Source of the DNA: a virus
Virus record (IMG/VR): IMGVR_UViG_3300028840_006907
Span: 320,001 to 384,000 of that record
Reading direction: 5' to 3' (one strand)
DNA: 64,000 bases
Shown here in pieces: positions 616-56,605 of this stretch; position 1 is the first letter of the stretch, and each line of letters begins with the position of its first letter. The notes under the pieces are model-generated. The model worked only from the letters and a program-made list of their open reading frames with translations. It searched no databases and had not been told where the DNA came from. Both the position numbers and the translations under genes were made by a program.

Positions 616-623
616 TTAATTCC

Positions 624-2090: not shown

Positions 2091-2710
2091 TACAGACCGC
2101 CCTTGATATAGAATGCATCACCCCATGTCCCTCCATCCCATGTGGTCTCAGCTCTTTCAAAACCGTATTTTGAAAGGAAAGAATCCAACTCAGTTACCAT
2201 GCAACAATTTTCATAGACTTGATCACGATTTACTTCAGCAATGATATAGTCAATCTTTCTTAATGTCTCTGTGCCCCCTTTAAAAACTTCCAGCTCAAAT
2301 CCCTGGACATCAATATTAATGAGGTTGCTAAAATCAGAAAAATAAAAGTTGTCTAATTTTTCTACTCTTATCTCATCCGATTCTTCAAACTTAATATGTG
2401 GGTACTGTCTTAAATGTATCAGTGGTTTTAATAAGGAGCTAGATTCTCCTTGATTGGATGATTTATAGAAAGTCTTAAAACATTCTTCCGGACCTAAAGC
2501 AATGTTATAAATTCTTACTCTAGAGTCGTCTTTGATATTCTCGTATAGTACTTTAAAGGAATCTGGATCGGGTTCGAAAAAGTTCATCTCTTTTATTGAA
2601 TCATATTTTATATAAATTTTATATTCTTCCCCATAATGGGCTCCTATATGAATGATCCCAGTAACATTCATGTCGTATTTGTTTATTAATCTATCGAAAT
2701 CAAGTAGCAT
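2090..2710 (-). CDS. FkbM-family methyltransferase-like protein
   Basis: 206 aa; N-terminal GIIHIGAHYGEE resembles the FkbM-type SAM-binding region; operon context with other transferases. Confidence 0.45.
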   Translation of the reverse strand: MLLDFDRLINKYDMNVTGIIHIGAHYGEEYKIYIKYDSIKEMNFFEPDPDSFKVLYENIKDDSRVRIYNIALGPEECFKTFYKSSNQGESSSLLKPLIHLRQYPHIKFEESDEIRVEKLDNFYFSDFSNLINIDVQGFELEVFKGGTETLRKIDYIIAEVNRDQVYENCCMVTELDSFLSKYGFERAETTWDGGTWGDAFYIKGGL

Positions 2711-4765: not shown

Positions 4766-4788
4766 TTTATTCCTCTAATTTAAATATG

Positions 4789-5337
4789 TTATCTGTTATC
4801 TTTTACAATCTGTTCTAATTGAGCTATACGATTTTTTAACTCAGTATTTTCAGTTTTTAATTTTTCTAATTCTTTCTCTTCTTCAATTTCGGTGTCTTTT
4901 ATCATAATGGAAAGAATTTCAATTTCAGCAGGTTTAATAATTTCTGGAAAATGTTCGAAATTAATTAAATAGAAATCTATTTCGATTTCTTCCTCCAGAA
5001 TTGAGTTGATTTCAGTAAAGAGTTTTTCATATTTATTTTTTAAATCAATAAGTTCAATTTTGAATTGAGGATTTTCTGCAACACCTTTAAATTCTTCGTT
5101 CTCGATGATGGGGGCATTATTTTCGTCTCTATCCACATATTTGGCACAAAGGTTTAGTCTCTTTTCTTCAAATTCATTTAAATCTTTTTGAAGGTTATCT
5201 AATATTTCGAGTTCTTCTTTTATCTTGTTTTTATTTTTTAATAAACCTAGTCCAAACCATTTGGATGCATCTATAATACTAACTCTTTGTATTGATTCGT
5301 TAATTTTTTTGATTTCTCCTCTTTTTATTTTAGCCAT
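4789..5337 (-). CDS. coiled-coil hypothetical protein
   Basis: 182 aa, K/E-rich heptad-like sequence (ELKNRIAQLEQIVKDNR). Confidence 0.4.
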   Translation of the reverse strand: MAKIKRGEIKKINESIQRVSIIDASKWFGLGLLKNKNKIKEELEILDNLQKDLNEFEEKRLNLCAKYVDRDENNAPIIENEEFKGVAENPQFKIELIDLKNKYEKLFTEINSILEEEIEIDFYLINFEHFPEIIKPAEIEILSIMIKDTEIEEEKELEKLKTENTELKNRIAQLEQIVKDNR

Positions 5338-5344
5338 TTTTTTC

Positions 5345-5842
5345 TCACTCTGTCCTTGTTATGTTGTAAACTTCAGTTTTTATCTTATCTAATTTTTTAA
5401 GAGTATCTTTTAAATTTTTCTCTATATCAAAGATTTCTTTCACAAATACTTCACTAGCGTTATATTGACCTTTTTTTATTTGCATTATAGCTATTTGTCT
5501 ATGTTCCGGTTCTGAAAGTACAAGAACGGTATTATCAGGAATTTTTCTTGAAATTATAACAGTAGCTCCCCACATATAACCCATAATACCATTTCTTATA
5601 GATTCTTTTCTTGTCTCCATATCAATTGAATCTTTACAAAATTTTCTAATATCAACATAAGATCTAGAATTCATTAAAACTTCATTTACTCTATTTTCAT
5701 GTTTTTCTATTTCTGCAAATCCATCAGCTAAAATATCGGGTATAAAATTAGGAATAGGGCTTTTAATAATTTTCCTAATATTTAATGACTTGATGAATTC
5801 TTCATATTCTATGTCTTTTAATTCTTTCGATAGGTATGCCAC
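5345..5842 (-). CDS. hypothetical protein
   Basis: 165-aa ORF in operon. Confidence 0.4.
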   Translation of the reverse strand: MAYLSKELKDIEYEEFIKSLNIRKIIKSPIPNFIPDILADGFAEIEKHENRVNEVLMNSRSYVDIRKFCKDSIDMETRKESIRNGIMGYMWGATVIISRKIPDNTVLVLSEPEHRQIAIMQIKKGQYNASEVFVKEIFDIEKNLKDTLKKLDKIKTEVYNITRTE

Positions 5843-6393
5843 TATTCATCCCCTTTAAAGATAGTATCTAAAAGTGAACCTTTATTATCCGATAATATGC
5901 AATTTTCGAAATAGGTTTTGAAAGATAAAGCATTTATTAATCGTTGAAAATCGACTCTTATTATTTTAAAGAAATAGTCATAAGCACAAGATGGGCATAT
6001 ATGATATATTTCAGGTTTTCCAGAGTTTTCTGAAACAATATCATATTTAATACATGTACTCTTAGCAGGGATATTACATCCTTTGATAGAACATTTTTGA
6101 GCCCATTCAATTATCTCTATGAATACTCTTCCTTTTTCACCATTATAGAAATTTGTGTAGAAAGGATTTATTTTCATATAAGTAATAGGGAATATATTAT
6201 ATACAGTAAGAACCGTATGGGGCTCTTTCATTGTTGCATCGATATCTTCTGAATTTCGTGAAATATATAATTCAGAGTCACATTGCATAATTTCTTTAGC
6301 CTTATTTTTATCACTAGTGGCTATTACTACTCTGTATGAGAAATTCAAAAGATTATCAAAATATTTATCAGTTGTAAATACTTCTAAATTCAT
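5842..6393 (-). CDS. hypothetical cysteine-containing protein
   Basis: 183-aa ORF with several Cys (CNIPAKSTC, CPSCAYDYF). Confidence 0.4.
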   Translation of the reverse strand: MNLEVFTTDKYFDNLLNFSYRVVIATSDKNKAKEIMQCDSELYISRNSEDIDATMKEPHTVLTVYNIFPITYMKINPFYTNFYNGEKGRVFIEIIEWAQKCSIKGCNIPAKSTCIKYDIVSENSGKPEIYHICPSCAYDYFFKIIRVDFQRLINALSFKTYFENCILSDNKGSLLDTIFKGDE

Positions 6394-6731
6394 TATAATC
6401 CTAATCTTTTAATAGTATGAGCTATATTTGGGAAATCCTCTTTTAATATATTAAATTGATTTTTACTATATGCTTTGATTTCGGTTGCTTCAGGAGCTAT
6501 CCAAATTTGAGCACCCCATATTTTTGCACAACATCCTTTTTCAAAACGTTCCTTATTTTTTTCAAAATCAAAAAAATTGTATACTTCTCTTGCGTAAAAC
6601 CAGTCTTGTGGGCCTATAATTATATGATCAACTTCTTCTTTAGCGCTTCGTATTTTTGAAAATATCTGTCCAAAATATCCGATTATATCTTCTTCATTCA
6701 TTTTTTTTAAAATTGACATGTCTACTCCCAT
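6393..6731 (-). CDS. hypothetical protein, tandem paralog A
   Basis: 112 aa; C-terminal APEATEIKAYSKNQFNILKEDFPN matches the neighbour's IEEATEVKVYHEGNFSDMKKDFPN. Confidence 0.4.
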   Translation of the reverse strand: MGVDMSILKKMNEEDIIGYFGQIFSKIRSAKEEVDHIIIGPQDWFYAREVYNFFDFEKNKERFEKGCCAKIWGAQIWIAPEATEIKAYSKNQFNILKEDFPNIAHTIKRLGL

Positions 6732-7081
6732 CGTACTTTTTGTAATAATAGATTGTTAGGGAAGTCTTTTTTCATATCACTGAAATTTCCTTCGTGGTAA
6801 ACTTTGACTTCAGTTGCTTCTTCAATTAATAATACAGGGGTTTTCCATAGGAAACCCACTAGTCCATCTTGAGAGTGTTCATGTTTTTCGATAGAGTCGG
6901 TGTCTAAATATTCTCTGATACCTGATAAGGATGTGAGATAATCCCAATCAATTCGATTTATTATCATATAGCGTGGTTTTTTCTCTTGTCTGATAAAGAG
7001 CAAAGAGATGTGATTAATTACTTTATTCTTTTTAGTATTTTTATTACCGGTTTTTCCAGCGATTTCTTTTAAGCTTGGCAT
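6722..7081 (-). CDS. hypothetical protein, tandem paralog B
   Basis: 119 aa; shares the EATE-K-Y...DFPN motif with 6393-6731. Confidence 0.4.
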   Translation of the reverse strand: MPSLKEIAGKTGNKNTKKNKVINHISLLFIRQEKKPRYMIINRIDWDYLTSLSGIREYLDTDSIEKHEHSQDGLVGFLWKTPVLLIEEATEVKVYHEGNFSDMKKDFPNNLLLQKVRWE

Positions 7082-7084
7082 TTA

Positions 7085-7759
7085 CTATTCCCGGTAAAAA
7101 GGTGGAAAGGAAACCCAATCTTTCATTCCTTTTAGAACGAGTCCATCTACATCTACCTGCATTCCTCCTACTATTTGGATCATGGGTTTGAACTTTTCAC
7201 AAATTCTTTTTATAAATCGGAAATCATGTTCAGGTTCATGTCTCCAAGGTTCTTCGATGGCCCATTCTCTTTTTACTATATAACAAGGAGTACCTACGTG
7301 GCATATGATAGGAAACATATGAATATCAATTTCAGGAACAAGAACAATTGTCTCGGGATCTCCATCTTTATACATCCGGGATTGCTGACATGACATCTGT
7401 ACTATACCAATCATGTTGTCACGGCAATTTGAGATGAGTGTTTCGAGATAAGTATCTTTGTAACGATCATCATCATCACAAAATACTAGGTATTGTCCCC
7501 GAGAAATTTTTATACCGTGATTTCGTGGTTTCGTTCCTGGAGAGATATCCATATTACCGTAATCTTTTTCGATATTACAGAATTGTGTCCAGGGTCCAGC
7601 AGTTTTCATTAAGTTAATGACATCTACAGGAGGTGGTCCATCATATACTATTATATGTTCAAAATTTTTAAAAGTTTGGTTTTTGAAATCGTTAAGTAAA
7701 TTTGATAGTTCTCTTACACCGCGAGAAGCAGGGGTAATAACACTGATAGTTGGTCCCAT
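7085..7759 (-). CDS. GT2-family glycosyltransferase-like protein
   Basis: 224 aa; N-terminal ISVITPASRG...FEHIIVYDGPPP resembles the GT2 N-terminal region; CDDDD acidic cluster. Confidence 0.5.
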   Translation of the reverse strand: MGPTISVITPASRGVRELSNLLNDFKNQTFKNFEHIIVYDGPPPVDVINLMKTAGPWTQFCNIEKDYGNMDISPGTKPRNHGIKISRGQYLVFCDDDDRYKDTYLETLISNCRDNMIGIVQMSCQQSRMYKDGDPETIVLVPEIDIHMFPIICHVGTPCYIVKREWAIEEPWRHEPEHDFRFIKRICEKFKPMIQIVGGMQVDVDGLVLKGMKDWVSFPPFYRE

Positions 7760-17949: not shown

Positions 17950-18816
17950 ATGGACAAAAAATATGAAGACCGAATGCTTGTCGTTTTTATCTTAGTGGGT
18001 CTAGTTGGTGGGTCACTGTTCTATTTCCTTAAAGATGGTCAGCCTCTCAGCTCAATTTTCATGACTTTCGCTCTATCAAGTATCCTCTATCGATTCCTGG
18101 GTGGAATTGGCCAAGGCACAAAATTCAGTGTCGGAGCATTTCGGTTAGGTGGTAGTGCAGCCTTCATGATCGGCTGTATCTTTTTTATCAACGAGTACAT
18201 TTTCCCAAAACCAGAAATCAACACCATTGTTTTAAGTACTCCCCAGGATCGATGGGTTCCTGTTAAATACCCTACAGGTGAGTATGTGAATGTTAAGGTA
18301 TTAACTCCTTCTGGAGATACTATTATTCATGGTATAAGTAGTGTAGAAATGGATGCTTTAAAAAAAAGGGAATACTGCATCACAAAAGAAGGGGAGAATT
18401 TTTATATCTGTTCTAATGCTGATTCAACGGTAATAGGCCATCTTAAGTTTGAAGATGTTTTTAAAGCTATTGAAAATGATATCCATATCACAGTCCAAGA
18501 TTTTCGGGTTTTTAAATTATACCCTAATCCTATAAATGACCCAAAAGATCAAGAAAAGAAATATAAAACTACTGATTCACTTGATGCTGTAAGTCAGACT
18601 TTTCCCATAGTAATCGAAGTCGATAAAACTAATATGAATATAAAGACAAAGGATGACAGTTTATTAACATCAGATGTACCTCGTAGTGAAAAATTCTATT
18701 TAGTTGATATTGAAAATGAGTATTTTATAGTTACAATATTACATGCTAATTTAGAAACATCAGAAAGTAAATGGTATTCTGAGTTTCTTGTTGGAAAAGT
18801 ATCTATTAATCGATAG
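17950..18816 (+). CDS. hypothetical membrane protein
   Basis: 288 aa; AAAGGAGG RBS; ~3 N-terminal hydrophobic helices. Confidence 0.45.
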   Translation: MDKKYEDRMLVVFILVGLVGGSLFYFLKDGQPLSSIFMTFALSSILYRFLGGIGQGTKFSVGAFRLGGSAAFMIGCIFFINEYIFPKPEINTIVLSTPQDRWVPVKYPTGEYVNVKVLTPSGDTIIHGISSVEMDALKKREYCITKEGENFYICSNADSTVIGHLKFEDVFKAIENDIHITVQDFRVFKLYPNPINDPKDQEKKYKTTDSLDAVSQTFPIVIEVDKTNMNIKTKDDSLLTSDVPRSEKFYLVDIENEYFIVTILHANLETSESKWYSEFLVGKVSINR

Positions 18817-18823
18817 AGGTAAT

Positions 18824-19252
18824 ATGAGCAATATGAAAATTGCAATAGCTTCTTATATGCGTTATACAGTTGTTTTAGCCAACTTGAAAGAGCATTTCAA
18901 AAGAGAACTCGATCTAGCTGGCCTATTTGATAAAGACTCCGATTATAATGGAATGATAGGTAACGCTGTTATGGACCTGTGTAAAGTCTTCTCTGATCAG
19001 GGCCATAGCGGGTTCTCCGCGAACTGGGTTCTGAAATTGTTCGATACTCTTGGTCACTATAAAACGTTGACTCCTATTACAGATAATCCGAAAGAGTGGA
19101 TGAAGGTTACAGATGGCCTCGGTAGAGATGAACCGGTCTGGCAGAGTAATCGAAATCCTTCCCTTTTTTCTAATAATGGTGGAAAGAGTTATTATGATGT
19201 AGACGATAAGAAGCGTAAGAAGATCCGCTCTAAAAAGTTTAAAAAGAAATAA
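18824..19252 (+). CDS. hypothetical protein
   Basis: Track start 18788 is TTG; in-frame ATG at 18824 has an AGAGGT RBS. Confidence 0.4.
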   Translation: MSNMKIAIASYMRYTVVLANLKEHFKRELDLAGLFDKDSDYNGMIGNAVMDLCKVFSDQGHSGFSANWVLKLFDTLGHYKTLTPITDNPKEWMKVTDGLGRDEPVWQSNRNPSLFSNNGGKSYYDVDDKKRKKIRSKKFKKK

Positions 19253-19312
19253 TTTTTCTGAATAAATCAGGTTTTTTTCTTATTCTTTCGATAATTTCTC
19301 TTCTCTTTTTTC

Positions 19313-19327
19313 TCATAATTTATTATA
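19313..19327 (+). promoter_or_regulatory. candidate leader promoter motif TTATAATTATATATA
   Basis: 15-bp motif in the AT-rich leader ~90 bp upstream of the first repeat; identical 15-mer recurs at 56411-56425. Confidence 0.35.
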
Positions 19328-19414
19328 ATTATATATAGTATCTATAGCTCTTTGAAATTGGTAGAAATTTACTGAATCCGTAAGCCCTTGATCTTATGAT
19401 ATTTATGTTTTAGT

Positions 19415-20311
19415 ATATTCCCCGCGTATGCGGGGCTGGGCCGATAAATCTTAAAATGGGTAAGATAAAAACCTGAATATTCCCCGCCCATGCGGGGCTG
19501 ATGCGTAATATAAATAATTTTTGATCAATTATAGGACATATTCCCCGCCCCTGCGGGGATTCCCCGAAAATATTGATGTTTTTTTGTATATATCAAAAAT
19601 ATTCCCCGCCCCTGCGGGGTTGATGCGAATACCGAACAAGTGCAGGGCCTGCAGATTATATATTCCCCGCGTATGCGGGGCTGGCGCGTAGGAGGTAAAA
19701 ATGAAATCGAAACATATTCCCCGCGTATGCGGGGCTGGTTCTAGAATTGAATGAAGCGCTGAATTTTCCCCGCCCATGCGGGGCTGAACCGACCGGGAAA
19801 TCATATCTATCCATAAATCTTGCATATTCCCCGCGTATGCGGGGCTGAACCGATACTAGATTGGGACATGTGTTTACCCAGAACATATTCCCCGCCCATG
19901 CGGGGCTGAACCGATTTCAAAAAACACGACCAGATAAAGATGAATATTCCCCGCGTATGCGGGGCTGTGTCAGGGTGAGAGGCTCGTGACGAATAATTTT
20001 TCATATTCCCCGACTCTTCGGGGTTGCCCCTCAGGAAGCTATTGAATTGCAAAAAACTGTATTCCCCGTCTATGCGGGGCTGTCTCTCCACATGCAAATG
20101 TAAGTAGTAAATACTGAATATTCCCCGGCATTCCGGGGCTGATCCCGTCTGGTAAAAACATAAAATGGTTCATCATAAGTATTCCCCGCCCATGCGAGGT
20201 TGGGCCATCCAGTACTGCTACTGCTAGGACCGTATTCCCCGCCCATGCGGGGCTGATCCTACGACTGGGACAGAAGTATTCATTGGTTTCACCCCGGCCT
20301 TTCCGGGGTCT
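19415..20311 (+). CRISPR. CRISPR-like array, 16 palindromic repeats with type I-E-like repeat sequence; non-canonical (degenerate 3' ends, variable spacing); no cas genes in window
   Basis: Consensus ATATTCCCCGCGTATGCGGGG(CTGAACCG) with repeat starts at 19415, 19477, 19538, 19599, 19660, 19714, 19764, 19824, 19885, 19944, 20003, 20059, 20118, 20179, 20232, 20288. Periods 50-62 bp (mode 61). Unique intervening sequences; AT-rich leader upstream; last repeat degenerate. Confidence 0.55.
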
Positions 20312-20316
20312 AAAAT

Positions 20317-20355
20317 AAGGATCTGAGATTTTTTTCTTAGATCCTTATATTTTTA
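20317..20355 (+). terminator. terminator-like hairpin downstream of the array
   Basis: AAGGATCTGAG - 8-nt loop - CTTAGATCCTT (one G-U wobble) followed by a T-rich tract. Confidence 0.35.
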
Positions 20356-20409: not shown

Positions 20410-21315
20410 ATGGCAATTGCGTTTATGAGAGGAAGCACCACTAATCAGAATGATTTGACCATAACGGTACGTGATACATCCAATAATTTGATCGACCCGT
20501 ATTCGTTGGAGTATGCTGTCTTCGATTACACTAGTGGCACTGAGGTCCTCATCGGATCCCCTGTTAATACTCCGCTCAAGTTGTCAACAGGAGAATATTG
20601 GGCGGAGGTTGTAATAGCAGCCGATGCCAATATAGGTCTCTGGCGCATCCGTTGGACAATTCAAGAAACAGCAGTCAGTCCTGTTTATCAATCGGTTCAG
20701 GAATTTCAAGTAGTAGGTTCCAGTGTTGTGACGAGTGTAACCGGAGATGCAAATTTTGATGCATTGGTCCATTCTTTACGAGTGATACTCCGAGACAACA
20801 ATCCGGACCGCAACTACAGATTTCGTCCCCCAGCTTCCGAGAAATTTATCCAAGGTCAGACCCAAGTCTTTGGATTCATTTGGGAAGATGAAGAGCTTGT
20901 AGAGTATATATACATGGCTATTGACGACTTCAATTCACGCCCCCCGACTACAGGTATAGATGTGGCCAATCTTTGGGGAACTGAGAGACGGTGGAGAACT
21001 ACAATTATTTTAAGAGCAGCAGCTTTTGCATGTTTCGCTATAACAATGAATTGGATCGCTGACGAATTTTCTTATTCAATTTCTGGAGTATCTCTTGACA
21101 TTGAGAAATCTTCGAAGTATCAATCTATGAAAGAGAATTATATCAATGAATATGACAAGCTTGTCGAGGCCAATAAGAGATCCATAAAAATTATAAAAGG
21201 TCTTAGGCAATATCGGTACGGGGTGGGCATCACGAGCGCCCTGGGACCCATGAACAGACCTGGAGTTCAAAGTAGAAGAAACCTTATAAGTCCAAGTTAT
21301 GGCCCTTATTTCTAA
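20410..21315 (+). CDS. hypothetical protein
   Basis: 301-aa ORF with AAGGAAAAAG RBS. Confidence 0.45.
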   Translation: MAIAFMRGSTTNQNDLTITVRDTSNNLIDPYSLEYAVFDYTSGTEVLIGSPVNTPLKLSTGEYWAEVVIAADANIGLWRIRWTIQETAVSPVYQSVQEFQVVGSSVVTSVTGDANFDALVHSLRVILRDNNPDRNYRFRPPASEKFIQGQTQVFGFIWEDEELVEYIYMAIDDFNSRPPTTGIDVANLWGTERRWRTTIILRAAAFACFAITMNWIADEFSYSISGVSLDIEKSSKYQSMKENYINEYDKLVEANKRSIKIIKGLRQYRYGVGITSALGPMNRPGVQSRRNLISPSYGPYF

Positions 21316-21408: not shown

Positions 21409-23859
21409 TTATATTTTATTATTTTTTCTAAGGAGAGCTATCTGACGTTTAATCCATCGAGGAGTTTCTTCAAGAGTTTCAGCCATTTGATTTCTTGTCA
21501 TCTTTCCACGATTATCTATTATGAATTGGAGCTTTTCTTCAGTCTTTCTATCTTTGGTACAACCAATAGGGTTTTTTGTAGATAATGTACCTTTTTTTTG
21601 TAAGAATTTTATTTGAGATTTAACCCATCGCTCTGTTTCATTGAGAGCTTTAGATAATTCTTTTTTAGTTTTATTTTTATAATTAGTGATTATATACTGC
21701 GTTTTTTCAGGGGTTCTTCTACATTTTGTTGAGAATTTAGAAATCTCTTTTAAATAGGTAAATTTCTCAGTGGGTTGTTTAATATTTATATCTTCAATAC
21801 ATTTTGAATTATATATTTCTTTTTCTCTTTTAGGATAAGGTTTAGTAACATAATTTTTTAATTTGTTAATTTTTTTCTTATCTCTTTTATTTTCACCTAT
21901 TAATAAGACATATTTATGTTTTCTTTCAGTAATAAATTTTTGAGCTTCAGATAATATATTTTTATTCCAATTATTCCATTGAACTTTAATTCCTTCTGGT
22001 ATGGTACTCATATTTTTAAAACCATTTTCTTTAAACCATTCCTTTTGAGAAATAATCCCTTGATTTTTACACCATTTTTTAAATGCTGATGTACGTTTTA
22101 GAGATTGAGCTGAAAAAGTCCTATTATTTTTAATGGAAGGATGTTTATATAAGTATGAACTTCCAAAGTTATTTCCTAGATAATCAAATCCACAAGCTTG
22201 GTAAATAGTCCCTATTTCAAGAGCTTTAGGATCAGCATAACCTATGAAAGCTCTTTTAGAAGTGTTATTAGCCATCCAATTACAAGCAAACCTTATAAGA
22301 CGGCTACCCAGGTTTTTCGGGGTCCATGAGGCAGTGGCACCTCTTTGAATTAAAGCTTCATATTTGGGAGTATCTTTACCTAGAATTTTGGAATATGCTG
22401 TGGGTTCATTTATAAATAATACTCCTGCGAGAATATTATTGTATCTGGCTGTGAAGCACCATTTTGGTATTACTCCAATTGTTCCTAACCATTCATATTT
22501 TTTTATAAATTGGACCATTTCATTATTAAATTTTTCTTCAGATAATGTAAAAGAAGTAGCTTTTAAAGAAGAGTGATTGAAATCGATATTTTTTTTATCT
22601 TCATCAATCCATTGAAGTTTCTTTTTATATTGGTGGCATATAAAAGTGGTCTTGTTTTTACTGTTAATTTTATTTTTTATTAAATCAATGATAATACCTT
22701 TTCGGATAGCTTCTTTTACATCATCAGACCAAAATCTAATCAAATTGGGTATATTTTTATTTTGGATTTCATCATTCTTAATATTTTCTTTTATTTTTAA
22801 TGCCCTTGGAGACGTATCATTTTCTCTTATTTCTTTACCATGCCAATAATTACCATCATATTGTACCCATAAGTTATAGCGAGGCATATAGAAATCAATT
22901 ACATGTTTAATAATTGGGTGCATAACTTGATGTTCTACAAAAGGATCAAATACAATAAGATAATTAAAAAAGTTATTTTCTTCATCTGAGGATGAGAAGG
23001 AATTATTTAGTTTAACTGTTTTATATGTTTTTTCTTTTATTTCAACATTCTGTTGGGGATTTTCAACGCCATATCTTTCAATATTAGTTTCAGTGATTTT
23101 TTTCTTAATCTCTGGAGATTGGAATACATTGTCAACCCCGTATCTTGATTGTACTGTTACTTTAACTTTTCTTTTTACTTCTTTAGATTGAGAGGGGTAT
23201 TCTACTCCTCGTTTTTCAATATTAGATTGACGGGATTTTTCTTTCATTGAGTTTAGTTGAGTAGAATATTCTACGCCATAACGTTTTTTAATAGTTTCGT
23301 TATTATGTTTAACTATATCTTCATTTATTTTATCTCGATTCCTTCTTAATCCTAGTTTAATAGCTCTTTCTCGGATGGCTTTCCAGGTCCTGTTTTCAAA
23401 GTAGAGCATAATAAATTCCATAGAATTCTTTTCATATACTTCTTTTAAAAGATCATCTTCTTTGGGTGACCAGAAGTCTTCCCTAGCAGGAGCGCTTTTA
23501 CCACCATCAATCATTTCTTGTTTAATTATTTCAGGATTTCTTTGAAGGTTTAATTTTTGAGCATTACTTCGGATGCTTTGCCATGATCGATTCTTGAATT
23601 TAGAAAGGATAAATTCTTTTGAATTATTTTCATATATATTTTTAAGAATATTTATCTCTTCGGTTGTCCAGGAATCTTTTCTTGGTCCTCTTTTTTTACG
23701 GTCTTCATTTATAAGGTCAGGATTACGGTGAAGATTTAGCTTACGTGCTTTTCTACAGATGGTTGTCCAAGATTTATTTAATTTGGAGATAATAAATTCT
23801 TTTGAATTATTTTTATATATTTCTTTTAATAAATTTTCTTCTTCTATTTTCCAACGCAT
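21409..23859 (-). CDS. multidomain hypothetical protein: N-terminal triplicated helical repeats, YGV(E/D)N repeats, possible Vsr/PD-(D/E)xK-like nuclease core
   Basis: Start set at second Met (MRWKIEE) with AAGAGG RBS; track start is 23916. Three ~50-aa repeats (SWTTEEINILKNIYENNSKEFI...); three RYGVxNxxQ repeats; VIDFYMPRYNLWVQYDGNYWHG resembles a Vsr/DUF559-type core. Only minus-strand gene in the plus-strand block. Confidence 0.5.
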   Translation of the reverse strand: MRWKIEEENLLKEIYKNNSKEFIISKLNKSWTTICRKARKLNLHRNPDLINEDRKKRGPRKDSWTTEEINILKNIYENNSKEFILSKFKNRSWQSIRSNAQKLNLQRNPEIIKQEMIDGGKSAPAREDFWSPKEDDLLKEVYEKNSMEFIMLYFENRTWKAIRERAIKLGLRRNRDKINEDIVKHNNETIKKRYGVEYSTQLNSMKEKSRQSNIEKRGVEYPSQSKEVKRKVKVTVQSRYGVDNVFQSPEIKKKITETNIERYGVENPQQNVEIKEKTYKTVKLNNSFSSSDEENNFFNYLIVFDPFVEHQVMHPIIKHVIDFYMPRYNLWVQYDGNYWHGKEIRENDTSPRALKIKENIKNDEIQNKNIPNLIRFWSDDVKEAIRKGIIIDLIKNKINSKNKTTFICHQYKKKLQWIDEDKKNIDFNHSSLKATSFTLSEEKFNNEMVQFIKKYEWLGTIGVIPKWCFTARYNNILAGVLFINEPTAYSKILGKDTPKYEALIQRGATASWTPKNLGSRLIRFACNWMANNTSKRAFIGYADPKALEIGTIYQACGFDYLGNNFGSSYLYKHPSIKNNRTFSAQSLKRTSAFKKWCKNQGIISQKEWFKENGFKNMSTIPEGIKVQWNNWNKNILSEAQKFITERKHKYVLLIGENKRDKKKINKLKNYVTKPYPKREKEIYNSKCIEDINIKQPTEKFTYLKEISKFSTKCRRTPEKTQYIITNYKNKTKKELSKALNETERWVKSQIKFLQKKGTLSTKNPIGCTKDRKTEEKLQFIIDNRGKMTRNQMAETLEETPRWIKRQIALLRKNNKI

Positions 23860-23962
23860 ATGAGTACCTCTTTTTAGTATATTACTTATTATAACAGGTA
23901 TTAGAGTTATTGTCAATATTTCATTTAATAAATATGGAATTCATTAATTTATAGGGAAAAAG

Positions 23963-27978: not shown

Positions 27979-30900
27979 ATGGCTCAAGTAGAAAGAAAAT
28001 GGATCCAGGACCAAGCAATTTCCAATGAAAAAGTAGATCCCACTGATATTTATACCATTACAGGTTTAAGAGTTGATGAAACCAATGCCATTGGGAGAGT
28101 AGGAATAGGTTTATCTAGCCCTTTGGATGCTCTTCATATTCAACGAACTGATTCTTCTTCTGGAATGATGCTGGATCTTAGTGATGGTACAAATGGTAAA
28201 CTTTATAAGATATATTCAGGAGCTAATGGTTTACTGAATTTTACTGATGCTACAGATGGGGGCATATTCACCTATGGTGAATCAGGTTCGATAGGTCGAG
28301 TTGGTATCAATACCGCATCTATCCAAGATCACCTTCATGTAAGTTCCCCTTTAACAGATGCTGCGTTAAGACTTGATTTAGATGATGGACTCAATGGTCG
28401 AGCTTATCGTCTTGTCTCAGATACAGATGGAGCTTTTAGGATAATTGATGTTGATGCGGGTAATGTAAATAGACTTCAGATTGCTAATACAGGAACTTTA
28501 ACTGTCTCAGGTGATGCAACTTTTGATAGTAATTTTCAAATTAATGGTACTGTTACAGTTATTAATACTGAAATTGTCATTGCAGATCAATTAGAAATAA
28601 ATCAAACTGACAATCAGGCAGCATTGATAGTAAGTCAAGATACAGGTGGTGCTACAGCCACTGTAATGAGAATTGAAAATGCTGGCACAGGCCATGCTTT
28701 AACCGTAGATTCTGGTAATGTAGGTATTGGTACTTTAACTCCGGCTGCTCCTCTTCATGTTCAAGGTGATATAATTACTGCCAATGGGTATAATATCGGA
28801 GACACCACTCATAGAATTGGTACTCTTTGGATGGCTTCTACTGTAGATTATTTGACTGACCTTAATTTTAGTTCAGGTGGAACAAATGTTACTTTTGCAA
28901 CCGGTGGAAATGTCGGGATAGGTTCTGGTACTCCTACCCAGGCCCTGGATGTGGTTGGAACTATAGAAAATACAGGTGATATCATAACAACTGGTTCTTA
29001 TCCTTCCGGTTTAATAAGAGGAGCTTATTTAACGATAACTACTGGAAATTCGACTTTCCAAGGAAGAGTGGGAATTGGTGTTACAAGTCCGTCTTATCCT
29101 CTTCATGTTGGTGGAGACATTTATTCCAATACAGGTAATATTGTAGCCACTGCTGGAACTGTGACAGGTGGATCTGGTTTAATAGCTACTACAGGTGGTG
29201 TTATAGCCTCTGCTGGAAATATAACAGCGACCTTGGGTGATCTCATCGCTTCTGCGGGTTCTGTAACTGCTAATACAAATGTAACTGCTACGAATGGAAA
29301 TATAGTTGCTTCTAATGGAAATATTTCTGCTACGAATGGTACAGTAACAGGAGGCACCGGTTTAATAGCTACCACAGGGGGTGTGACCGCTACGAATGGA
29401 AATATAGTTGCTTCTAATGGAAATATTTCTGCTACGAATGGTACAGTAACAGGAGGCACCGGTTTAATAGCTACCACAGGGGGTGTGACCGCTTTAGCTG
29501 GTAATATCTCTGCTTCGGCTGGTTCTGTAACTGCTAATACTAATATAACAGCCACGAATGGTAATATTGTTGCTTCTAATGGAAATATTTCTGCTACAAA
29601 TGGTACGGTAACAGGAGGCACCGGTTTAATAGCGACTACAGGTGGTGTAACCGCTACGGCTGGAAATATCACTGCTTCAAATGGTAGTTTTGTCGCTCCA
29701 AATGGAATTGTAAGTGTAGGTTTTGGCGTTATAGCAGCAGGGGGTGATATATTTGCCCAAACGGGTAAAGTAGGAATTTCAACCAGTTCTATTGCAGGAG
29801 GTTATGTATTACATGTTCAAGGAAACGCTTATTGTTCAGGTCAAGTAGATACAAATACTTTGGATGTAGGTAGTGGCAGTTTTACTGTAAGTGCAATTGG
29901 TGCAACAAATATCGGACCAGGCTGGTTAACTTTCGGTCAACATATGTCTGGTGGAGGACAGATTGGATCTGCTTCTACCGTAAATATTGTTTCAACCAGT
30001 GGTGCAACTATGTCAGGAGGTTCAGGCGCTGTCTCAATTACTACTAATAACAGTGGTACGCCAAGTGCGATTAATGTGACCTCTGGAAATAACACCGGAT
30101 CAGGAGTTGGTGGAGCACTCAATCTGAATGCAGGTGATTCGGGAGGAGCTGGTACAGGTGGTGCAGTAACTATTACTGGAGGAACGGCTTCAGGTGGTGG
30201 ATCTACAGGAGGAGACATTTTGCTGCTTCCTGGAAGTGCTGTCTCAAATGGGCGCGTTGAGGTAGGCACAGGTGCCTCTTCGAAAAATTTATGGGTTTCA
30301 GGTAGTGTAACTATAGAAGGAGCTAATTCTGCTTTTGCTCTTTCGATTAATAATACGAATTATGTAGGAGCTTATTGTGCAATAGCAGGAGCATCAACGG
30401 TAGCTGGCTGGTTTGAAAATAGTGGTTCAGATTCAACATCTATGTTTGTGCAACAATTAAATACTGGTAAAGGGCTTTTCGCTACTGGATTAGGATTAAA
30501 TTCTTTTGCAGGATTTTTCCAAAGTACGGGCTATACAACTCTTAGGTCAGAAGTGAGTGGTACTGGAGGTGGTGATTATGCTGTACATGCAATATGTACA
30601 AATGCTGGATCGAGTGCCACTTCAGCAGCAGTTTTTGCTCAAAATTGGGGAGGTGGAAAAGCTATTCAGGCAACCGCAGGAACTGGAACTACTATTCAAG
30701 GGTCAAACACTAATGGTACTGCTATTTATGGGTCTCAAGCAGGAACCTCTGGTAGAGCAGGACGTTTTAGGTGTAATGCTGGATCTTATGCATACAATGC
30801 TGTTGAGGTAGAAGTGACTTCAGGTACAGGAGCTTCAAAAGGGATCTTAGTTAATTATACCGGTTCTGGTAATGCTATAGAAGTAAACGGTGGTAGTGGC

Positions 30901-31695: not shown

Positions 31696-34600
31696 ATGTC
31701 ACAAGTGTTGAGAAAATGGATAGCTGATCAAGCCGTTAATAATGATAAAATAGATCCTACCGATACCTATACAATTACAGGATTGAGAGTCGATGAGACG
31801 AATGCCGTAGGAAGAATAGCAATGGGATTAAGCAGTCCATTAGATGCTATTCATATTAGGAGGACTGATACTTCTGCTGGTATAATAATGGATCTTGATG
31901 ATGGAGGTTCAGGACGATCTTATCAAATAACTTCAGATCAAAGTGGCTTTTTAAATGTAAGAGATAGAGATCTCGATGTTGATCGATTGACTTTATATTC
32001 TGTTCCTTCAGTAGGGCGCTTAGGAGTAAATAGTTATTCTCCTCAAGACACTATTCATGCACGATCAACTGTACTTGCTTCAGCTTTACGATTAGATACC
32101 GATGATGGATTTGCAGGAAGATCTTATCGTGTCGTTTCTGATACCGATGGTGCTTTTAAGATTATCGATGTTGATGCAGGTAATGTGAATAGATTTCAAA
32201 TTGCTAATACAGGTACTTTGACAGTTTCAGGTGATGCAACTTTCGATAGTAATTTTCAGATTAACGGTACTGTTACTGTAATAAATACAGAAATAGTAGT
32301 AGCTGATCAGCTCGAAATTAATCAAACAGATGATCAGGCTGCGTTAATAGTAAGTCAAGATAATGCAGGTGCCACGGCTACTGTAATGAGAATCGAAAAT
32401 GCAGGTTCGGGTCATGCTTTAACCGTAGATTCTGGTAATGTAGGTATTGGTACTTTAACTCCGGCTGCTCCTCTTCATGTTCAAGGAGATATAATTACTG
32501 CTAATGGGTATAATATCGGAGACACCACTCATCGAATTGGTACTCTCTGGATGGCTTCCACTGTAGATTATCAAACAAATTTAAATTTTTATTCTGGTGG
32601 AAATAATGTTACCTTTGCCACGGGTGGTAATGTTGGTATAGGTTCGACTATTCCTACTCAGGCCCTGGATGTGGTTGGAAATATTTTAGGTAGTGCAAAT
32701 ATACAGGGTGCAACATTAACTATAAATACAGGACCTTCCCAGTTTACTGGAAATGTTGGTATCGGGATTTCTCCTTCATATCCTCTTCATGTAAGTGGTG
32801 CTATTGTAGGAACTACGACAGTAACGGGTGGTACAGGTATTATTGCTTCAACTGGTAATATTACAGCTTCTACAGGAAATATAATAGCAACCTTGGGAGA
32901 TATGACAGCGGTTGCAGGGGATATAGCTGCTCCATTAGGTACAATTACGGCATCGAGTTTAAATATAACCTCAGGGCCAACTTCACTTGCTGGCCCTTTT
33001 TCAGTTACGACCCCAGCTACAACTGATACTTATATGGAAATTAGTAGAGCTGGTTTTCCTGCATTCAAAGTCCAGACTTATTATGTTGCTTCACCTACTA
33101 CAAGCAGAATTGTGGAAATGGGTGCTACTGACGGTGGACAGACACATATTACTTATGGTAGTGGCGGTCCAACACGTCGAGCCATTTCGATTTTAAGTGC
33201 TGGTGCTACTTTAGGTTATGTAGGTATAGGTACTCAAACCCCCGCACAAAGACTTCAAGTTCAAGGTAATATTCAAGTAGAAGGTGATTTTTTAGGAAAG
33301 CCTACTGCAAGTGCTTCGAATATAGGTAGTTCTACTCGTCGGATTGGTACTATTTATATGGATTCGACAGTTAACACAGGTTCTACGGGTTTAACAATAG
33401 CGCCTAGTGGGAGCCCGATGTTATATGTCACTCCAAGTGGAGTAGGTATAGGAACAGATTTTCCTGTCAATTTATTAGATGTGAGAAGTTCTGGTGCTGT
33501 GGCTGCTCAGCTTCAGGCTGGTTCTGGTGGAAACAATGCATTTTTTAGAGTGAGAGCAAATGGTATTGGTGGAGATGCATCTATAGTAGTGGATTCAGGG
33601 GATGCTGCTAATGCTTCTACAGTAGATTTTTATTTTGCTGGTAATCCTGGTGGTTCGATAGAATATAAGGGTTGGAATATGAATATAAACAACTCTATAG
33701 GTTATACGAGCGTGAATATTGGGAGTCAACCAGTATTAAAAGTGGACTCACCAGGAGTCGATGTTAGTACATCAGGTAATTTAACAATGAATCTTCGAGG
33801 TGGTCCAACTAATAGCATAAATTTAGACTTTGGTAATACCTTTTTAGCTTATGCAGGTATTCATCAACCTCATTTTCTTGATACTACGGTATATAATAAT
33901 ATTGGCAAGATCATTTTAACGCCCAGTACTAACATGCTTTATGCAACAAGTACTGGTGTTGGTATATTTCAAGCGGATGTCCCTAGCGCTTTTCTACATG
34001 TAAAGAGTACTGTAGGGGCTGCTGATGCTAAGATTGAATCGACAGTAGGAAATGCTCAATTAGATCTTACTCCTCAATTTAATGCTAATGCTATTCTAAA
34101 TATGACTGCATTTTCCGGTATTCAGCAGACAGGTGCTACAGACATGACCATGTTTAATAATATCGGAAGAATTGTTTTAACTCCAAGTTCTAATATGCTT
34201 TATGCTACAAGTACAGGAGTTGGAATTTTTCAAGCTGATGTTCCTACCGCTTTTTTACATGTTAAGAGTACAGTTGGACTAGCTGATGCGAAAATTGAGT
34301 CCACAGTAGGAAATGCTAAATTAACATTTACTCCGCAATTTAGTTCTAATGCAATTATCGAATTTGGAGCATTTGCAGGTATTCAACAAACTGGTTTTAC
34401 TGATACTACTGTGTTTAATAATGCAGGTCAGATTGTTTTGTCTCCTAGTTTAGGAGTGTTGCGTGCTTCAAGTGCAGGTGTAGGTCTTACTTATGGTGAT
34501 ACTTTTACACCAGGTTATTTGTTGCATATGTATAGAAGTTCTGGATCTACTGAAGCAAAAATTGAATCAGATGATAATAATGCCCGATTAAGGCTTGATT

Positions 34601-56269: not shown

Positions 56270-56320
56270 TTTAGCTAGATTTTCTCTTACATACAGTTTT
56301 TAAAAAGATGGTCTTCTAAT

Positions 56321-56350
56321 GGAGGGAGTGGTTGCCCTCCATTTTTCTTT
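56321..56350 (+). terminator. rho-independent terminator
   Basis: GGAGGG - loop - CCCTCC followed by ATTTTTCTTT. Confidence 0.5.
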
Positions 56351-56410
56351 CTTATAGTGGTTTTTCACTTCTTCATTGTAGTATTTATTTGTATTCCATT
56401 TAGAAATTAG

Positions 56411-56512
56411 TTATAATTATATATACTTCTCCCCGTCCTTTTACGGGGCTGTCTCACACACACAGATTCTCAAGTACGGAAAATGATTAAATACCCTCGG
56501 CTCTTTCCGGGG
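56411..56512 (+). ncRNA. candidate promoter-driven small RNA carrying two CRISPR-repeat-like hairpins (mini-array or repeat-mimic RNA)
   Basis: TTATAATTATATATA at 56411-56425 (identical to 19313-19327) directly followed by hairpin CCCCGTCCTTTTACGGGG+CTG (56431-56451) and a second degenerate copy at ~56494-56512, 63 bp apart; between a terminator and the next gene. Confidence 0.4.
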
Positions 56513-56605
56513 ATTCAGGGAAAGATTCACAATTTTTCCCTTTTCTTTTACCTCCTCCAATTTGATAATGTATTAATATTTCCCTGACTATATATAGGAG
56601 TATAT

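What the first reader, a model, noticed from the sequence alone, without database searches (positions are those of the whole stretch)
19415..20311. Cas-less CRISPR-like array with type I-E-like repeats that break CRISPR rules
Sixteen GC-rich palindromic repeats (stem CCCCGC/GCGGGG) sit in an AT-rich background behind an AT-rich leader. The best copies, ATATTCCCCGCGTATGCGGGGCTGAACCG, closely resemble the E. coli type I-E repeat as I recall it (GAGTTCCCCGCGCCAGCGGGGATAAACCG) and low-GC I-E repeats, and the modal period of 61 bp fits 28-29-bp repeats with 32-33-bp spacers. Unlike a maintained array, the 3' handle is degenerate (CTGAACCGA in only 3 of 16), spacing varies from 50 to 62 bp, and several repeats carry paired stem changes that keep the hairpin (CCCCGA/TCGGGG, CCCCGG/CCGGGG, CCCCGT/ACGGGG). 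That covariation argues for selection on the RNA hairpin itself. Two readings: a virus-borne orphan mini-array that uses a host Cas system, or an array of repeat-mimic RNAs acting as Cas decoys (RNA anti-CRISPR-like). No cas gene is recognisable in the window.
Basis: partly seen in the sequence, partly recalled or inferred. Interest (0 to 1): 0.92.

Follow-up and report, generated by a model that had tools for sequence, protein, structure and literature searches.

The report
Huge-phage array of CRISPR-repeat mimics
A giant bacteriophage carries, without any cas genes nearby, a transcription unit of 16 look-alikes of type I-E CRISPR repeats next to an anti-defence gene, most likely to feed the host's own CRISPR proteins with phage-made guide-like RNAs.

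Summary
Window 19415-20311 holds 15 hairpin units plus a divergent terminal one, and the motif is expected 0.01 times by chance. The unit matches genuine type I-E repeats, including a family that sits beside a verified cas3-cse1-cse2-cas6e-cas7-cas5e operon.

The window is part of a ~389-470-kb phage genome. The array is its own promoter-to-terminator unit in a variable accessory slot, just after a Tad3 (anti-Thoeris) gene. No cas gene was found within about 83 kb, and no Cas7e was found on the phage's contigs.

All 15 repeats differ, but not at random. The stem pairs with compensatory and G·U changes. Handle positions U-7, G-6 and C-2 never vary, and these are the positions invariant in natural I-E repeats. 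Positions -5 and -4 drift.

Two related phages carry homologous arrays at the same slot. One has roughly 50-64 units and the other is cut off by the contig end. Each has a different compensated stem, mostly shorter spacers and signs of growth by tandem duplication. The window also holds a one-spacer mini-array at 56.4 kb.

No spacer target was found. My best reading is a multiplexed crRNA-mimic (Racr/Cracr-like) anti-CRISPR array. The main rival is an ordinary orphan array used with host Cas. I rate it a new variant of a known kind.

The parts
17950..18816 (+). Accessory gene of the same variable island. It encodes a 288-aa predicted membrane protein and is context only, not part of the RNA system.
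   Evidence: No Pfam or PHROG hit. Homologues were found. The 63%-identical homologue lies beside the arrays of L242, and a distant homologue lies on a cellular contig. The AF2 model is poor: three N-terminal helices plus a beta domain, pLDDT 55.
18788..19252 (+). Tad3-like gene (inhibitor of type I Thoeris) immediately upstream of the array.
   Evidence: Pfam PF25185 Tad3, E=5e-33, 113.8 bits against a cutoff of 27. It is conserved next to the same slot in relatives L042, L242, L246, L248 and L249. Tad3 binds ThsB (PMC13402655).
19253..19414 (+). AT-rich leader with a promoter-like site (TTCTCA-18-TATAGT, 19310-19339) and the 15-mer TTATAATTATATATA (19323-19337). It ends in GTTTTAGT directly before repeat 1.
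   Evidence: The leader is homologous to the leader of L242 array B, including the TATA-rich block and the GTTTTAGT-repeat junction. Promoter function is inferred from consensus only.
19415..20260 (+). Fifteen type I-E-like units. Each has a 5-nt flank (A/G)TATT, a 6-bp stem CCCCGN/NCGGGG, a 4-nt loop and an 8-nt handle YTGNNNCN. They are separated by 14 unique spacers of 20-33 nt.
   Evidence: All 15 repeat sequences are distinct.
20287..20311 (+). Terminal divergent unit with hairpin CCCCGG-CCTTT-CCGGGG (20292-20308). It is preceded by a 26-nt spacer.
   Evidence: The same hairpin type closes the mini-array at 56495-56512 and resembles the units of L242 array C.
20315..20348 (+). Intrinsic-terminator-like hairpin followed by a T run, closing the array transcription unit.
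   Evidence: An equivalent hairpin follows the array of L247.
56399..56427 (+). Promoter-like site of the mini-array (TTTAGA-17-TATACT). It contains the same exact 15-mer as the main leader (56411-56425).
   Evidence: A terminator-like hairpin at 56318-56343 lies upstream.
56431..56512 (+). One-spacer mini-array. It comprises a hairpin CCCCGT-CCTTTT-ACGGGG (56431-56448), the handle CTGTCTCA, a ~33-nt spacer (stem-to-stem 46 nt, the canonical I-E geometry) and a closing hairpin CCTCGG-CTCTTT-CCGGGG (56495-56512).
56517..56541 (+). Terminator-like hairpin plus T run, ending the mini-array unit.

Best explanation
The locus is a phage-encoded, cas-less array of type I-E CRISPR-repeat mimics. It is transcribed as its own unit from the AT-rich leader.

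Proposed mechanism, all steps inferred:
1. The host's Cas6e binds and cuts each hairpin, and stays bound to it.
2. The processed ~50-61-nt RNAs carry enough of the I-E 5' handle (U-7, G-6, C-2) to be taken up by Cas5e and Cas7.
3. The phage thereby floods the host's type I-E machinery with its own non-targeting or regulatory crRNA-like RNAs.
4. Host anti-phage crRNAs are outcompeted. This is the Racr/Cracr type of RNA anti-CRISPR, here multiplexed 16-fold and roughly 50- to 64-fold in a relative.

The array does not grow by Cas1-Cas2 acquisition. It grows by tandem duplication of whole units that then diverge under constraint on the hairpin, a few handle bases and the spacer length class. The stem co-evolves with the host's Cas6e specificity.

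Shown here: the anatomy, the I-E repeat identity, the absence of cas nearby, the constraint pattern, the homologous arrays in relatives and the anti-defence neighbour. Not shown: transcription, processing, Cas binding and inhibition.
For: 1. I-E identity. The unit matches real I-E repeats at up to 26 of 28 positions. The closest AT-rich family (L011) lies directly beside cas3-cse1-cse2-cas6e-cas7-cas5e.

2. Cas-less. There is no Cas family or homologue within about 83 kb. None of 81 Cas7e relatives sits on a contig of this phage's size.

3. No canonical acquisition. All 15 repeats differ, including the leader-proximal ones. Regular viral and cellular I-E arrays have identical repeats at a strict 61-bp period.

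4. Selective constraint rather than decay. There are 6 deviations in 180 stem positions against 33 in 75 at handle positions 25-29, yet C28, T23 and G24 are invariant. The same U-7, G-6, C-2 invariance holds in 49 L242 units and in 10 natural I-E families. Ninety solitary viral hairpins lack it.

5. RNA hairpin. Across 77 distinct units 99.5% of cells pair. There are 29 double-sided compensatory cells (0 of 500 shuffles reach this) and 15 G.U intermediates. The stems differ between phages: CCCCGC/GCGGGG, CCCCAC/GTGGGG and CCCCTGT/ACAGGGG.

6. Dosage-like expansion and duplication. L242 has roughly 50-64 units. Its array C has spacers related to one another. All other spacers are unique, and their GC content equals the phage's own (0.34 vs 0.35).

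7. Spacer geometry. Stem-to-stem distances cluster at 45, 38 and ~33 nt. This is compatible with loss of one or two 6-nt Cas7 steps, as reported for short viral crRNA-like RNAs.

8. Genomic context. The array is an independent promoter-to-terminator unit in a variable accessory slot, right after an anti-Thoeris gene.

9. Precedent. RNA anti-CRISPRs often lie near other anti-defence genes and just after promoters (PMC10651486). Viral Cracr arrays against I-E are described (10.1101/2024.10.29.618823).

10. No targets. No spacer matches the phage itself, its relatives, INPHARED phages, PLSDB plasmids or (three spacers tested) IMG/VR.
Against: - No expression, processing or inhibition data exist.
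- The host is unknown, so mimicry of a cognate host repeat is untested.
- Missing spacer targets are weak evidence. Most CRISPR spacers have no database match, and only three spacers could be scanned against IMG/VR.
- Seven of the 15 spacers have the canonical 32-33 nt, and three units have a perfect CTGAACCG handle, as expected for working guides.
- A lytic phage would have to act against Cascade complexes that are already loaded.
- The 6-nt quantisation is not resolved from 7 nt.
- Only about 83 kb of a 389-470-kb genome was inspected directly for cas genes. The Cas7e test depends on a word-based search and on contig-length bookkeeping.
- Three 81-82% relatives lack the array, so it is dispensable.
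Confidence: 0.5

Rival explanations
1. It is an ordinary orphan CRISPR array of a huge phage. Host type I-E Cas proteins process it into working crRNAs that destroy or silence competing phages or host genes. The repeat heterogeneity and length variation would reflect old age without Cas1-Cas2 homogenisation.
For: Huge phages often carry compact arrays without adaptation or interference genes and were proposed to use host Cas (PMC7162821). Seven spacers are 32-33 nt, and the mini-array at 56.4 kb has the canonical 46-nt geometry. The spacers are unique. The universally conserved handle bases are retained, which a guide needs. Spacer 5 looks like a captured gene start, AGGAGGTAAAAATG. Cas1/2-less I-E arrays beside a full effector operon (L010, L011, L033) also show irregular spacers of 18-109 nt.
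Against: There is no sign of canonical acquisition, since every repeat differs even at the leader end. The roughly 50-64 units of L242 mostly have ~25-nt spacers, and one sub-array has near-duplicate spacers. That pattern fits unit duplication rather than protospacer capture. No protospacer was found. Position -5, which is A in 9 of 10 natural families, is free here.
Confidence: 0.27
2. The hairpins have nothing to do with Cas proteins. They would be phage regulatory or selfish stem-loops (promoter-stem-loop cassettes, attenuators or terminators, RNA-stabilising elements, REP/MITE-like repeats, or binding sites for a phage protein) that resemble I-E repeats only by convergence.
For: Units occur at three or more places in the genome, one directly after a promoter-like motif. 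GC-rich hairpins of this core are common as solitary elements in viral contigs: 92 of a 120-locus sample, most without a handle signature. The host and any Cas partner are unknown.
Against: The match to I-E goes beyond the stem. It includes the 5' flank (G/A)TATT, the tetraloop size, the invariant U-7, G-6 and C-2, and the canonical 45-46-nt stem-to-stem distance (8+32+5). The units are not followed by T runs, and a separate terminator closes each locus. The units cluster in arrays on one strand rather than scattering. Nothing else was found in 84.7 kb with filters off.
Confidence: 0.13
3. It is a decaying relic of a CRISPR array once captured from a host, now without function.
For: The repeats are heterogeneous, the spacing is irregular, there are no cas genes and no spacer targets. 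The array is absent from three 81-82% relatives.
Against: The divergence is far from uniform: 3% in stems against 44% at handle positions 25-29, with C28 invariant. Stem changes are compensated. Homologous arrays are maintained and expanded in two other phages, with conserved leader and terminator elements.
Confidence: 0.05

Closest known systems
Type I-E CRISPR arrays (E. coli K-12 type; here also the L011-type array beside cas3-cse1-cse2-cas6e-cas7-cas5e)
   Same: A 28-29-nt unit with a 5-nt flank, a 6-bp GC stem, a tetraloop and an 8-nt handle. U-7, G-6 and C-2 are conserved. The modal period is 61 bp. There is an AT-rich leader, the spacers are unique and the terminal repeat is divergent.
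   Different: There are no cas genes in cis. Every repeat differs from every other. Spacers are 20-33 nt (18-34 in the relative). Positions -5 and -4 are unconstrained. Growth appears to be by tandem duplication, not Cas1-Cas2 insertion.
Cas-less or adaptation-less CRISPR arrays of huge phages (Al-Shayeb et al. 2020, PMC7162821) and viral mini-arrays (Faure 2019 and Medvedeva 2019, as reviewed in PMC11656645)
   Same: A huge-phage genome carrying an array without adaptation or interference genes, presumed to rely on host Cas. The one-spacer mini-array at 56.4 kb fits the mini-array definition.
   Different: Described phage arrays have uniform repeats matching the host, and some of their spacers hit related viruses. 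Here the repeats are heterogeneous and no target or host is known. Sixteen units exceeds the reported median of six.
RNA anti-CRISPRs (Racr; Camara-Wilpert et al. 2023, PMC10651486)
   Same: A repeat-mimicking hairpin on a mobile element, downstream of a promoter, not linked to cas and next to another anti-defence gene. The hairpin is the conserved part. Two I-E Racrs were shown to work.
   Different: Racrs are solitary units, and RacrIF1 acts because its RNA lacks a 5' handle. Here the units are arrayed 16-fold, so each processed RNA inherits a handle whose key bases are conserved.
Viral crRNA-like regulatory RNAs and 'Cracr arrays' (Liu et al., bioRxiv 10.1101/2024.10.29.618823)
   Same: Degenerate psi-repeats with short psi-spacers (21-24 nt) in phage genomes, arranged as array-like multiplexed units. 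They compete with host crRNAs and redirect I-E Cascade, and are often found beside Acr genes. L191 in IMG/VR is such a triplet.
   Different: Reported I-E Cracr arrays have 2-3 spacers that match cas promoters of known hosts. This array has 15 spacers (roughly 50-64 units in L242), about half of them of canonical length, and no identified target.
Host crRNA-like regulators CreA/CreR (CreTA and cas autoregulation), as described in the same preprint
   Same: Degenerate repeats flank a short spacer that guides Cascade to bind without cleaving.
   Different: Those lie inside host CRISPR-Cas loci as single units. This one is on a phage, far from any cas gene.

Membership tests
Type I-E CRISPR array | Repeat of 28-29 nt with the I-E consensus: 5' flank, 6-7-bp GC stem, tetraloop and an 8-nt 3' part that becomes the crRNA 5' handle | tested here: met
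   Up to 26 of 28 positions match repeats of regular 61-bp-period arrays. The same family lies beside a verified I-E operon in L011. U-7, G-6 and C-2 are conserved as in 10 natural families.
Type I-E CRISPR array | Repeats (nearly) identical within an array, as a result of repeat duplication at each acquisition | tested here: not met
   There are 15 distinct sequences among 15 units, with mean column identity 86%. Regular arrays in hand have identical repeats.
Type I-E CRISPR array | Unique spacers of uniform length (32-33 nt) | tested here: not met
   The spacers are unique. Their lengths are 33, 32, 32, 32, 25, 20, 32, 32, 30, 30, 27, 30, 32, 24 and 26 nt.
Type I-E CRISPR array | Linked cas genes (Cascade, cas3, cas1-cas2), or at least the same genome encoding them | tested here: not met
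   None was found within about 83 kb. No Cas7e was seen on the phage's contigs. The remaining ~300-390 kb of the genome could not be read.
Type I-E CRISPR array | Spacers derived from mobile elements (protospacer matches with a PAM) | tested here: inconclusive
   No match was found in the window, relatives, INPHARED, PLSDB or (three spacers) IMG/VR. Same-site assemblies could not be searched.
Virus-borne orphan array or mini-array using host Cas | Array on a viral genome without cas genes | tested here: met
   The genome has phage hallmarks: a tail sheath gene, and a downstream gene conserved in 112 IMG/VR contigs. The array is identical in three independent assemblies and flanked by phage genes.
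Virus-borne orphan array or mini-array using host Cas | Repeats identical or near-identical to those of the host's CRISPR-Cas system | not testable with these tools
Virus-borne orphan array or mini-array using host Cas | Spacers target related viruses | tested here: inconclusive
   No hits in about 1 Mb of relatives' loci or in IMG/VR for three spacers.
Racr (RNA anti-CRISPR) | Solitary repeat unit | tested here: not met
   There are 16 tandem units. Even the small locus at 56.4 kb has two hairpins flanking a spacer.
Racr (RNA anti-CRISPR) | Repeat-like hairpin on a mobile element, after a promoter, not cas-associated, often among anti-defence genes | tested here: met
   Promoter-like sites lie upstream (consensus only). 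There is no cas gene nearby, and a Tad3 gene is adjacent.
Racr (RNA anti-CRISPR) | Binds the cognate Cas6 and inhibits interference | not testable with these tools
   This needs biochemistry or plaque assays.
Cracr array (viral crRNA-like regulatory RNAs) | psi-repeat/psi-spacer units on a virus, outside any CRISPR-Cas locus, arranged as a multi-spacer unit | tested here: met
   compared.
Cracr array (viral crRNA-like regulatory RNAs) | Spacer shorter than canonical (about 21-24 nt) | tested here: inconclusive
   Eight of 15 window spacers are 20-30 nt and seven are 32-33 nt. In L242 most are 18-28 nt.
Cracr array (viral crRNA-like regulatory RNAs) | Spacer matches (at least 9 PAM-proximal bp) a cas promoter or a CRISPR-guarding toxin gene of the host | not testable with these tools
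   The host locus is unknown. There were no matches to the few I-E loci in hand.

The most novel reading that the evidence does not exclude
A distinct class of RNA anti-CRISPR: long 'sponge arrays' of tens of crRNA mimics in huge phages. They would arise and expand by tandem duplication, with no Cas1-Cas2 involved. They would keep only the bases that Cas6e and Cas5e read, track host Cas6e specificity through compensated stem changes, and use shortened spacers to build undersized, harmless or regulatory Cascade complexes. The effect would be stoichiometric disarming of host type I-E immunity.
Probability: 0.35. Interest if true: 0.8.

Novelty: new variant of a known kind. Interest (0 to 1): 0.62.

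Why it matters
If the reading is right, RNA-based anti-CRISPR is not limited to solitary repeats or 2-3-guide arrays in temperate phages of well-studied hosts. Giant environmental phages would deploy it at a scale of tens of units.

The independently drifting units are also a natural mutational scan of a type I-E repeat. They show which bases are kept (5' flank U2, U4 and U5; stem pairing; U-7, G-6 and C-2) and which are free (loop, -5, -4, -1). That makes the recognition rules of Cas6e and Cas5e directly testable.

There are two practical points. Array finders that demand uniform repeats and spacers will miss or misclassify such loci. And phage 'CRISPR arrays' cannot be assumed to be guide libraries.

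Tried and rejected
- Rfam gave no family at gathering threshold, and only chance-level hits at E<=10. No tRNA was found.
- blastn of the locus against INPHARED phages found no relative.
- An IMG/VR scan for the specific repeat core gave 0 hits.
- Spacers were searched against the window itself, the related loci, INPHARED and PLSDB. Three spacers were also searched in IMG/VR as 22-specified-base patterns. Only chance matches were found; the hits for spacer 5 are an RBS+ATG motif.
- The minus-strand ORFs 19529-19825 and 19807-20097 are artefacts of translating the repeats. Their only 'homologues' are other arrays.
- I asked whether the upstream 288-aa protein is a Cas6-like partner. It has no family hit, its AF2 model is poor (pLDDT 55, a membrane-like N-terminus) and a distant homologue sits on a cellular contig, so I dropped the idea and ran no fold search.
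- Cas7e of L011 has no close relative in IMG/VR.
- The Tad3-like protein gave no relatives in IMG/VR with peptide patterns.
- Whole-array RNA folding was uninformative, because the repeats pair with each other.
- A strict 6-nt periodicity of spacer length could not be separated from 6.5-7 nt.
- Assembly chimera is rejected. The array is identical in two JGI samples and one Logan assembly, with phage genes on both sides.
- A centromere or iteron role linked to the actin-like gene is rejected, because that gene lies 37 kb away and the I-E match is too specific.
Full report
**1. What is there**

Window 19415-20311 contains 15 units of the form (A/G)TATT-CCCCGN-NNNN-NCGGGG-YTGNNNCN. A 16th, divergent unit (CACCCCGG-CCTTT-CCGGGG) follows at 20290-20308. 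The core motif is expected 0.01 times by chance in the window. Start-to-start spacing is 62, 61, 61, 61, 54, 49, 61, 61, 59, 59, 56, 59, 61, 53, 55 bp. If the repeat is taken as 29 nt, the spacers are 20-33 nt, and seven of them are 32-33 nt.

The array fills the gap between two + strand genes. A 160-nt AT-rich leader with a promoter-like site lies upstream, and a strong terminator-like hairpin (20315-20348) lies downstream. No Rfam family or tRNA is present. The minus-strand ORFs inside the array are translation artefacts of the repeats.

**2. Where it sits**

The window belongs to JGI contig Ga0180437_10000019 (388,651 bp). The same sequence occurs in Ga0180438_10000010 (469,541 bp) and in a Logan assembly. 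The array is identical in all three, which rules out a chimera.

The genome is an AT-rich huge phage. It has a tail sheath gene, ThyX, an actin-like Volactin-family protein, a Mom-like protein and large fibre-like ORFs. The gene just downstream of the array (301 aa) is conserved in at least 112 IMG/VR contigs of up to ~450 kb. The gene just upstream is a Tad3 homologue (Pfam PF25185, E=5e-33). Tad3 is a phage inhibitor of the Thoeris ThsB protein (PMC13402655).

In most relatives the two conserved flanking genes are about 1 kb apart. In the window, 6.3 kb of accessory genes and the array lie between them. Relatives fill the slot after Tad3 in different ways:
- L042 (74% identical downstream gene) has two unrelated protein genes there.
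- L246, L248 and L249 (81-82%) have nothing there.

So the array occupies a variable accessory and anti-defence slot.

**3. It is a type I-E-type repeat**

The core matches regular 61-bp-period arrays:
- Lactobacillus MAG: GTATTCCCCGCACATGCGGGGGTGATCC.
- Propionibacteriaceae MAG: GTATTCCCCGCATGTGCGGGGCTGATCC, 26 of 28 positions identical to unit 15.

The closest AT-rich family (L010, L011, L033; GTATTCCCCGCACACGCGGGGCTGAACCG) has the same 3' end as units 7-9. It lies directly downstream of cas3-cse1-cse2-cas6e-cas7-cas5e, identified with NCBIfam.

**4. No cas genes**

- Precomputed Pfam annotation from 9.4 kb before the window to 9 kb after it shows no Cas family. Window ~31.3-50.2 kb is not listed in that annotation. 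Three of the large ORFs in that stretch were scanned directly and showed lectin-like (Laminin_G_3) or no domains.
- tblastn with the L011-type Cas proteins finds nothing over the whole window.
- None of 81 Cas7e relatives in a 5.8-billion-protein collection lies on a contig the size of this phage's contigs.

The rest of the genome could not be read, so 'cas-less' is firm for about 83 kb and only probable for the whole genome.

**5. The heterogeneity is patterned**

All 15 repeats differ from one another. Deviations from consensus by region:

| Region | Deviations |
|---|---|
| 5' flank | 4 of 75 |
| Stems | 6 of 180 |
| First three handle bases | 5 of 45 |
| Handle positions 25-29 | 33 of 75 |

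Within that last block C28 is invariant (15 of 15), while positions 25 and 26 carry almost no information.

Ten distinct natural I-E families in hand have U-7, G-6 and C-2 invariant and C-3 in 9 of 10. By contrast, 90 solitary GC hairpins from viral contigs show no handle conservation. The phage units therefore keep the bases that all I-E repeats keep and drift elsewhere (loop, -8, -5, -4, -1). This is not neutral decay. It also suggests that more than the Cas6e hairpin is being read.

**6. Relatives show a maintained, fast-evolving family**

*L242.* A homologue (63% identity) of the accessory membrane-protein gene led to this 11-kb contig. It has the same gene order, and its array leader is homologous to the window's, including the GTTTTAGT-repeat junction. 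It carries roughly 50-64 units, depending on the detector, in three blocks:
- The stem is CCCCAC/GTGGGG instead of CCCCGC/GCGGGG.
- The same U-7, G-6, C-2 invariance holds (49, 49 and 48 of 49).
- Spacers cluster at 18-21, 24-28 and 32-34 nt.
- A terminal block has a longer hairpin, and its spacers are near-duplicates of each other. The window's unit 16 resembles that hairpin.

*L247.* This 88% relative begins inside an array at the same slot. Its stems are CCCCTGT/ACAGGGG, its handles are TTGTCTCT, TTGGTTCT and TTGTTCCA, and a similar terminator follows.

*Covariation.* Over 77 distinct units, 99.5% of stem cells pair. There are 29 double-sided changes (0 of 500 shuffles reach this) and 15 G.U intermediates, which points to an RNA hairpin.

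*Spacers.* None is shared between phages. Outside the duplicated block, spacers are unique, and their GC content equals that of the phage.

**7. More loci in the same genome**

The structural model, run without filters over 84.7 kb, finds only two further loci:
- A two-unit array about 6.5 kb beyond the window start. One of its units has the L242-type stem.
- A unit at window 56431-56456.

The second is part of a tidy one-spacer mini-array: terminator, promoter-like site, hairpin plus CTGTCTCA, a 33-nt spacer (stem-to-stem 46 nt), a closing hairpin and a terminator. The promoter-like site contains the exact 15-mer TTATAATTATATATA, which otherwise occurs exactly only in the main leader.

**8. 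Targets**

No spacer matches any of the following beyond chance:
- the phage itself;
- about 1 Mb of relatives' loci;
- INPHARED phages;
- PLSDB plasmids;
- IMG/VR (three spacers tested).

**9. How unusual it is**

- 92 are solitary, 21 are pairs and 4 are triplets.
- Only three have 5 or more units, all with identical repeats at a strict 61-bp period.

The literature already describes cas-less arrays in huge phages (median six repeats), proposed to use host Cas (PMC7162821). It describes solitary-repeat RNA anti-CRISPRs that need the hairpin and act by building aberrant Cas6-Cas7 complexes (PMC10651486). It also describes viral 'Cracr arrays' of 2-3 short-spacer crRNA-like RNAs that compete for Cas proteins and repress cas promoters, including I-E (10.1101/2024.10.29.618823).

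**10. Interpretation**

The anatomy fits RNAs made to be handled by a host type I-E system. The following all fit a dosage-driven competitor or regulatory (Racr/Cracr-like) anti-CRISPR array better than a guide library:
- the lack of repeat homogenisation;
- evidence of unit duplication;
- expansion to tens of units;
- spacer composition equal to the phage's own, with no targets;
- short spacer classes;
- the anti-defence neighbourhood.

I put this at about 0.5.

An ordinary orphan array used with host Cas against competitors remains plausible, at about 0.27. Canonical-length spacers, some perfect handles and conserved handle bases are what guides need, and unmatched spacers are the norm. Cas-independent hairpin functions (about 0.13) and a dead relic (about 0.05) fit the data poorly. 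No step of the mechanism has been shown experimentally.

**11. Novelty**

This is not a new principle. It is a clear new variant: long, heterogeneous, duplicating I-E-mimic arrays in huge phages. The conservation pattern also doubles as a natural map of I-E repeat constraints.

Noticed in passing
L010:1-7605, L011:118-7713, L033:3526-3910: An AT-rich (33% GC) element from three related metagenome samples carries a complete type I-E interference module with no cas1/cas2 next to it. Its array differs between samples by truncated or fused spacers. For example, ...GATGCTATTGACTCTGTT occurs as 18-, 64- and 109-nt versions. This looks like array erosion without adaptation. Whether the element is viral or cellular is unclear; it also encodes DnaJ, a LigD-type primase-polymerase and a ferritin-like protein.
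   Followed up: partly
L119:17720-17804 (same phage, ~6.5 kb beyond the window start): A two-unit mini-array with a 27-nt spacer. One unit has the L242-type stem CCCCAC/GTGGGG and the other the window-type CCCCGC/GCGGGG. One phage therefore carries mimics of two stem variants.
   Followed up: partly
L242:3022-3263: A small ORF with the look of an HTH DNA-binding protein (…ISRQTIKRRVAVGVLPKP…) sits inside the hairpin array of the related phage, splitting it.
   Followed up: no
window 57217-58233: A phage gene for an actin-like protein of the Volactin family (PF25216, E=1e-63), between ThyX and the tail-sheath region of a huge phage.
   Followed up: no
window 21409-23916 (- strand): An 835-aa protein combining DUF7487, a Mom-like DNA-modification domain and HTH/HNH-like regions. 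It is conserved next to the array slot in several relatives.
   Followed up: no
P0093, P0094, P0111 and others (homologues of window 20410-21315): Several relatives of the conserved 301-aa protein are ~495 aa long and carry an intein (PF14890), so this core phage gene is an intein target.
   Followed up: no
window 19692-19745: Spacer 5 carries a strong Shine-Dalgarno-like motif plus ATG (AGGAGGTAAAAATG). This opens a 17-codon ORF running through repeat 6. It could be a captured gene start or a coincidence.
   Followed up: partly
L191:~240-350 (IMGVR_UViG_3300045988_059305): Three I-E-like units at a 50-bp period (21-nt spacers) with a conserved GTGATCC handle. This looks like a Cracr-type triplet.
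   Followed up: no
window 1-7759 (- strand) and L119:10672-20663: A long block of glycosyltransferase, methyltransferase, radical-SAM and transketolase-like genes, suggesting that the phage encodes sugar or surface modification.
   Followed up: no
window 29280-29686, 33852-34422, 63712-63903: In-frame tandem repeats (periods 81-102, 261 and 48 nt) inside very large ORFs, probably repetitive fibre or surface proteins.
   Followed up: no
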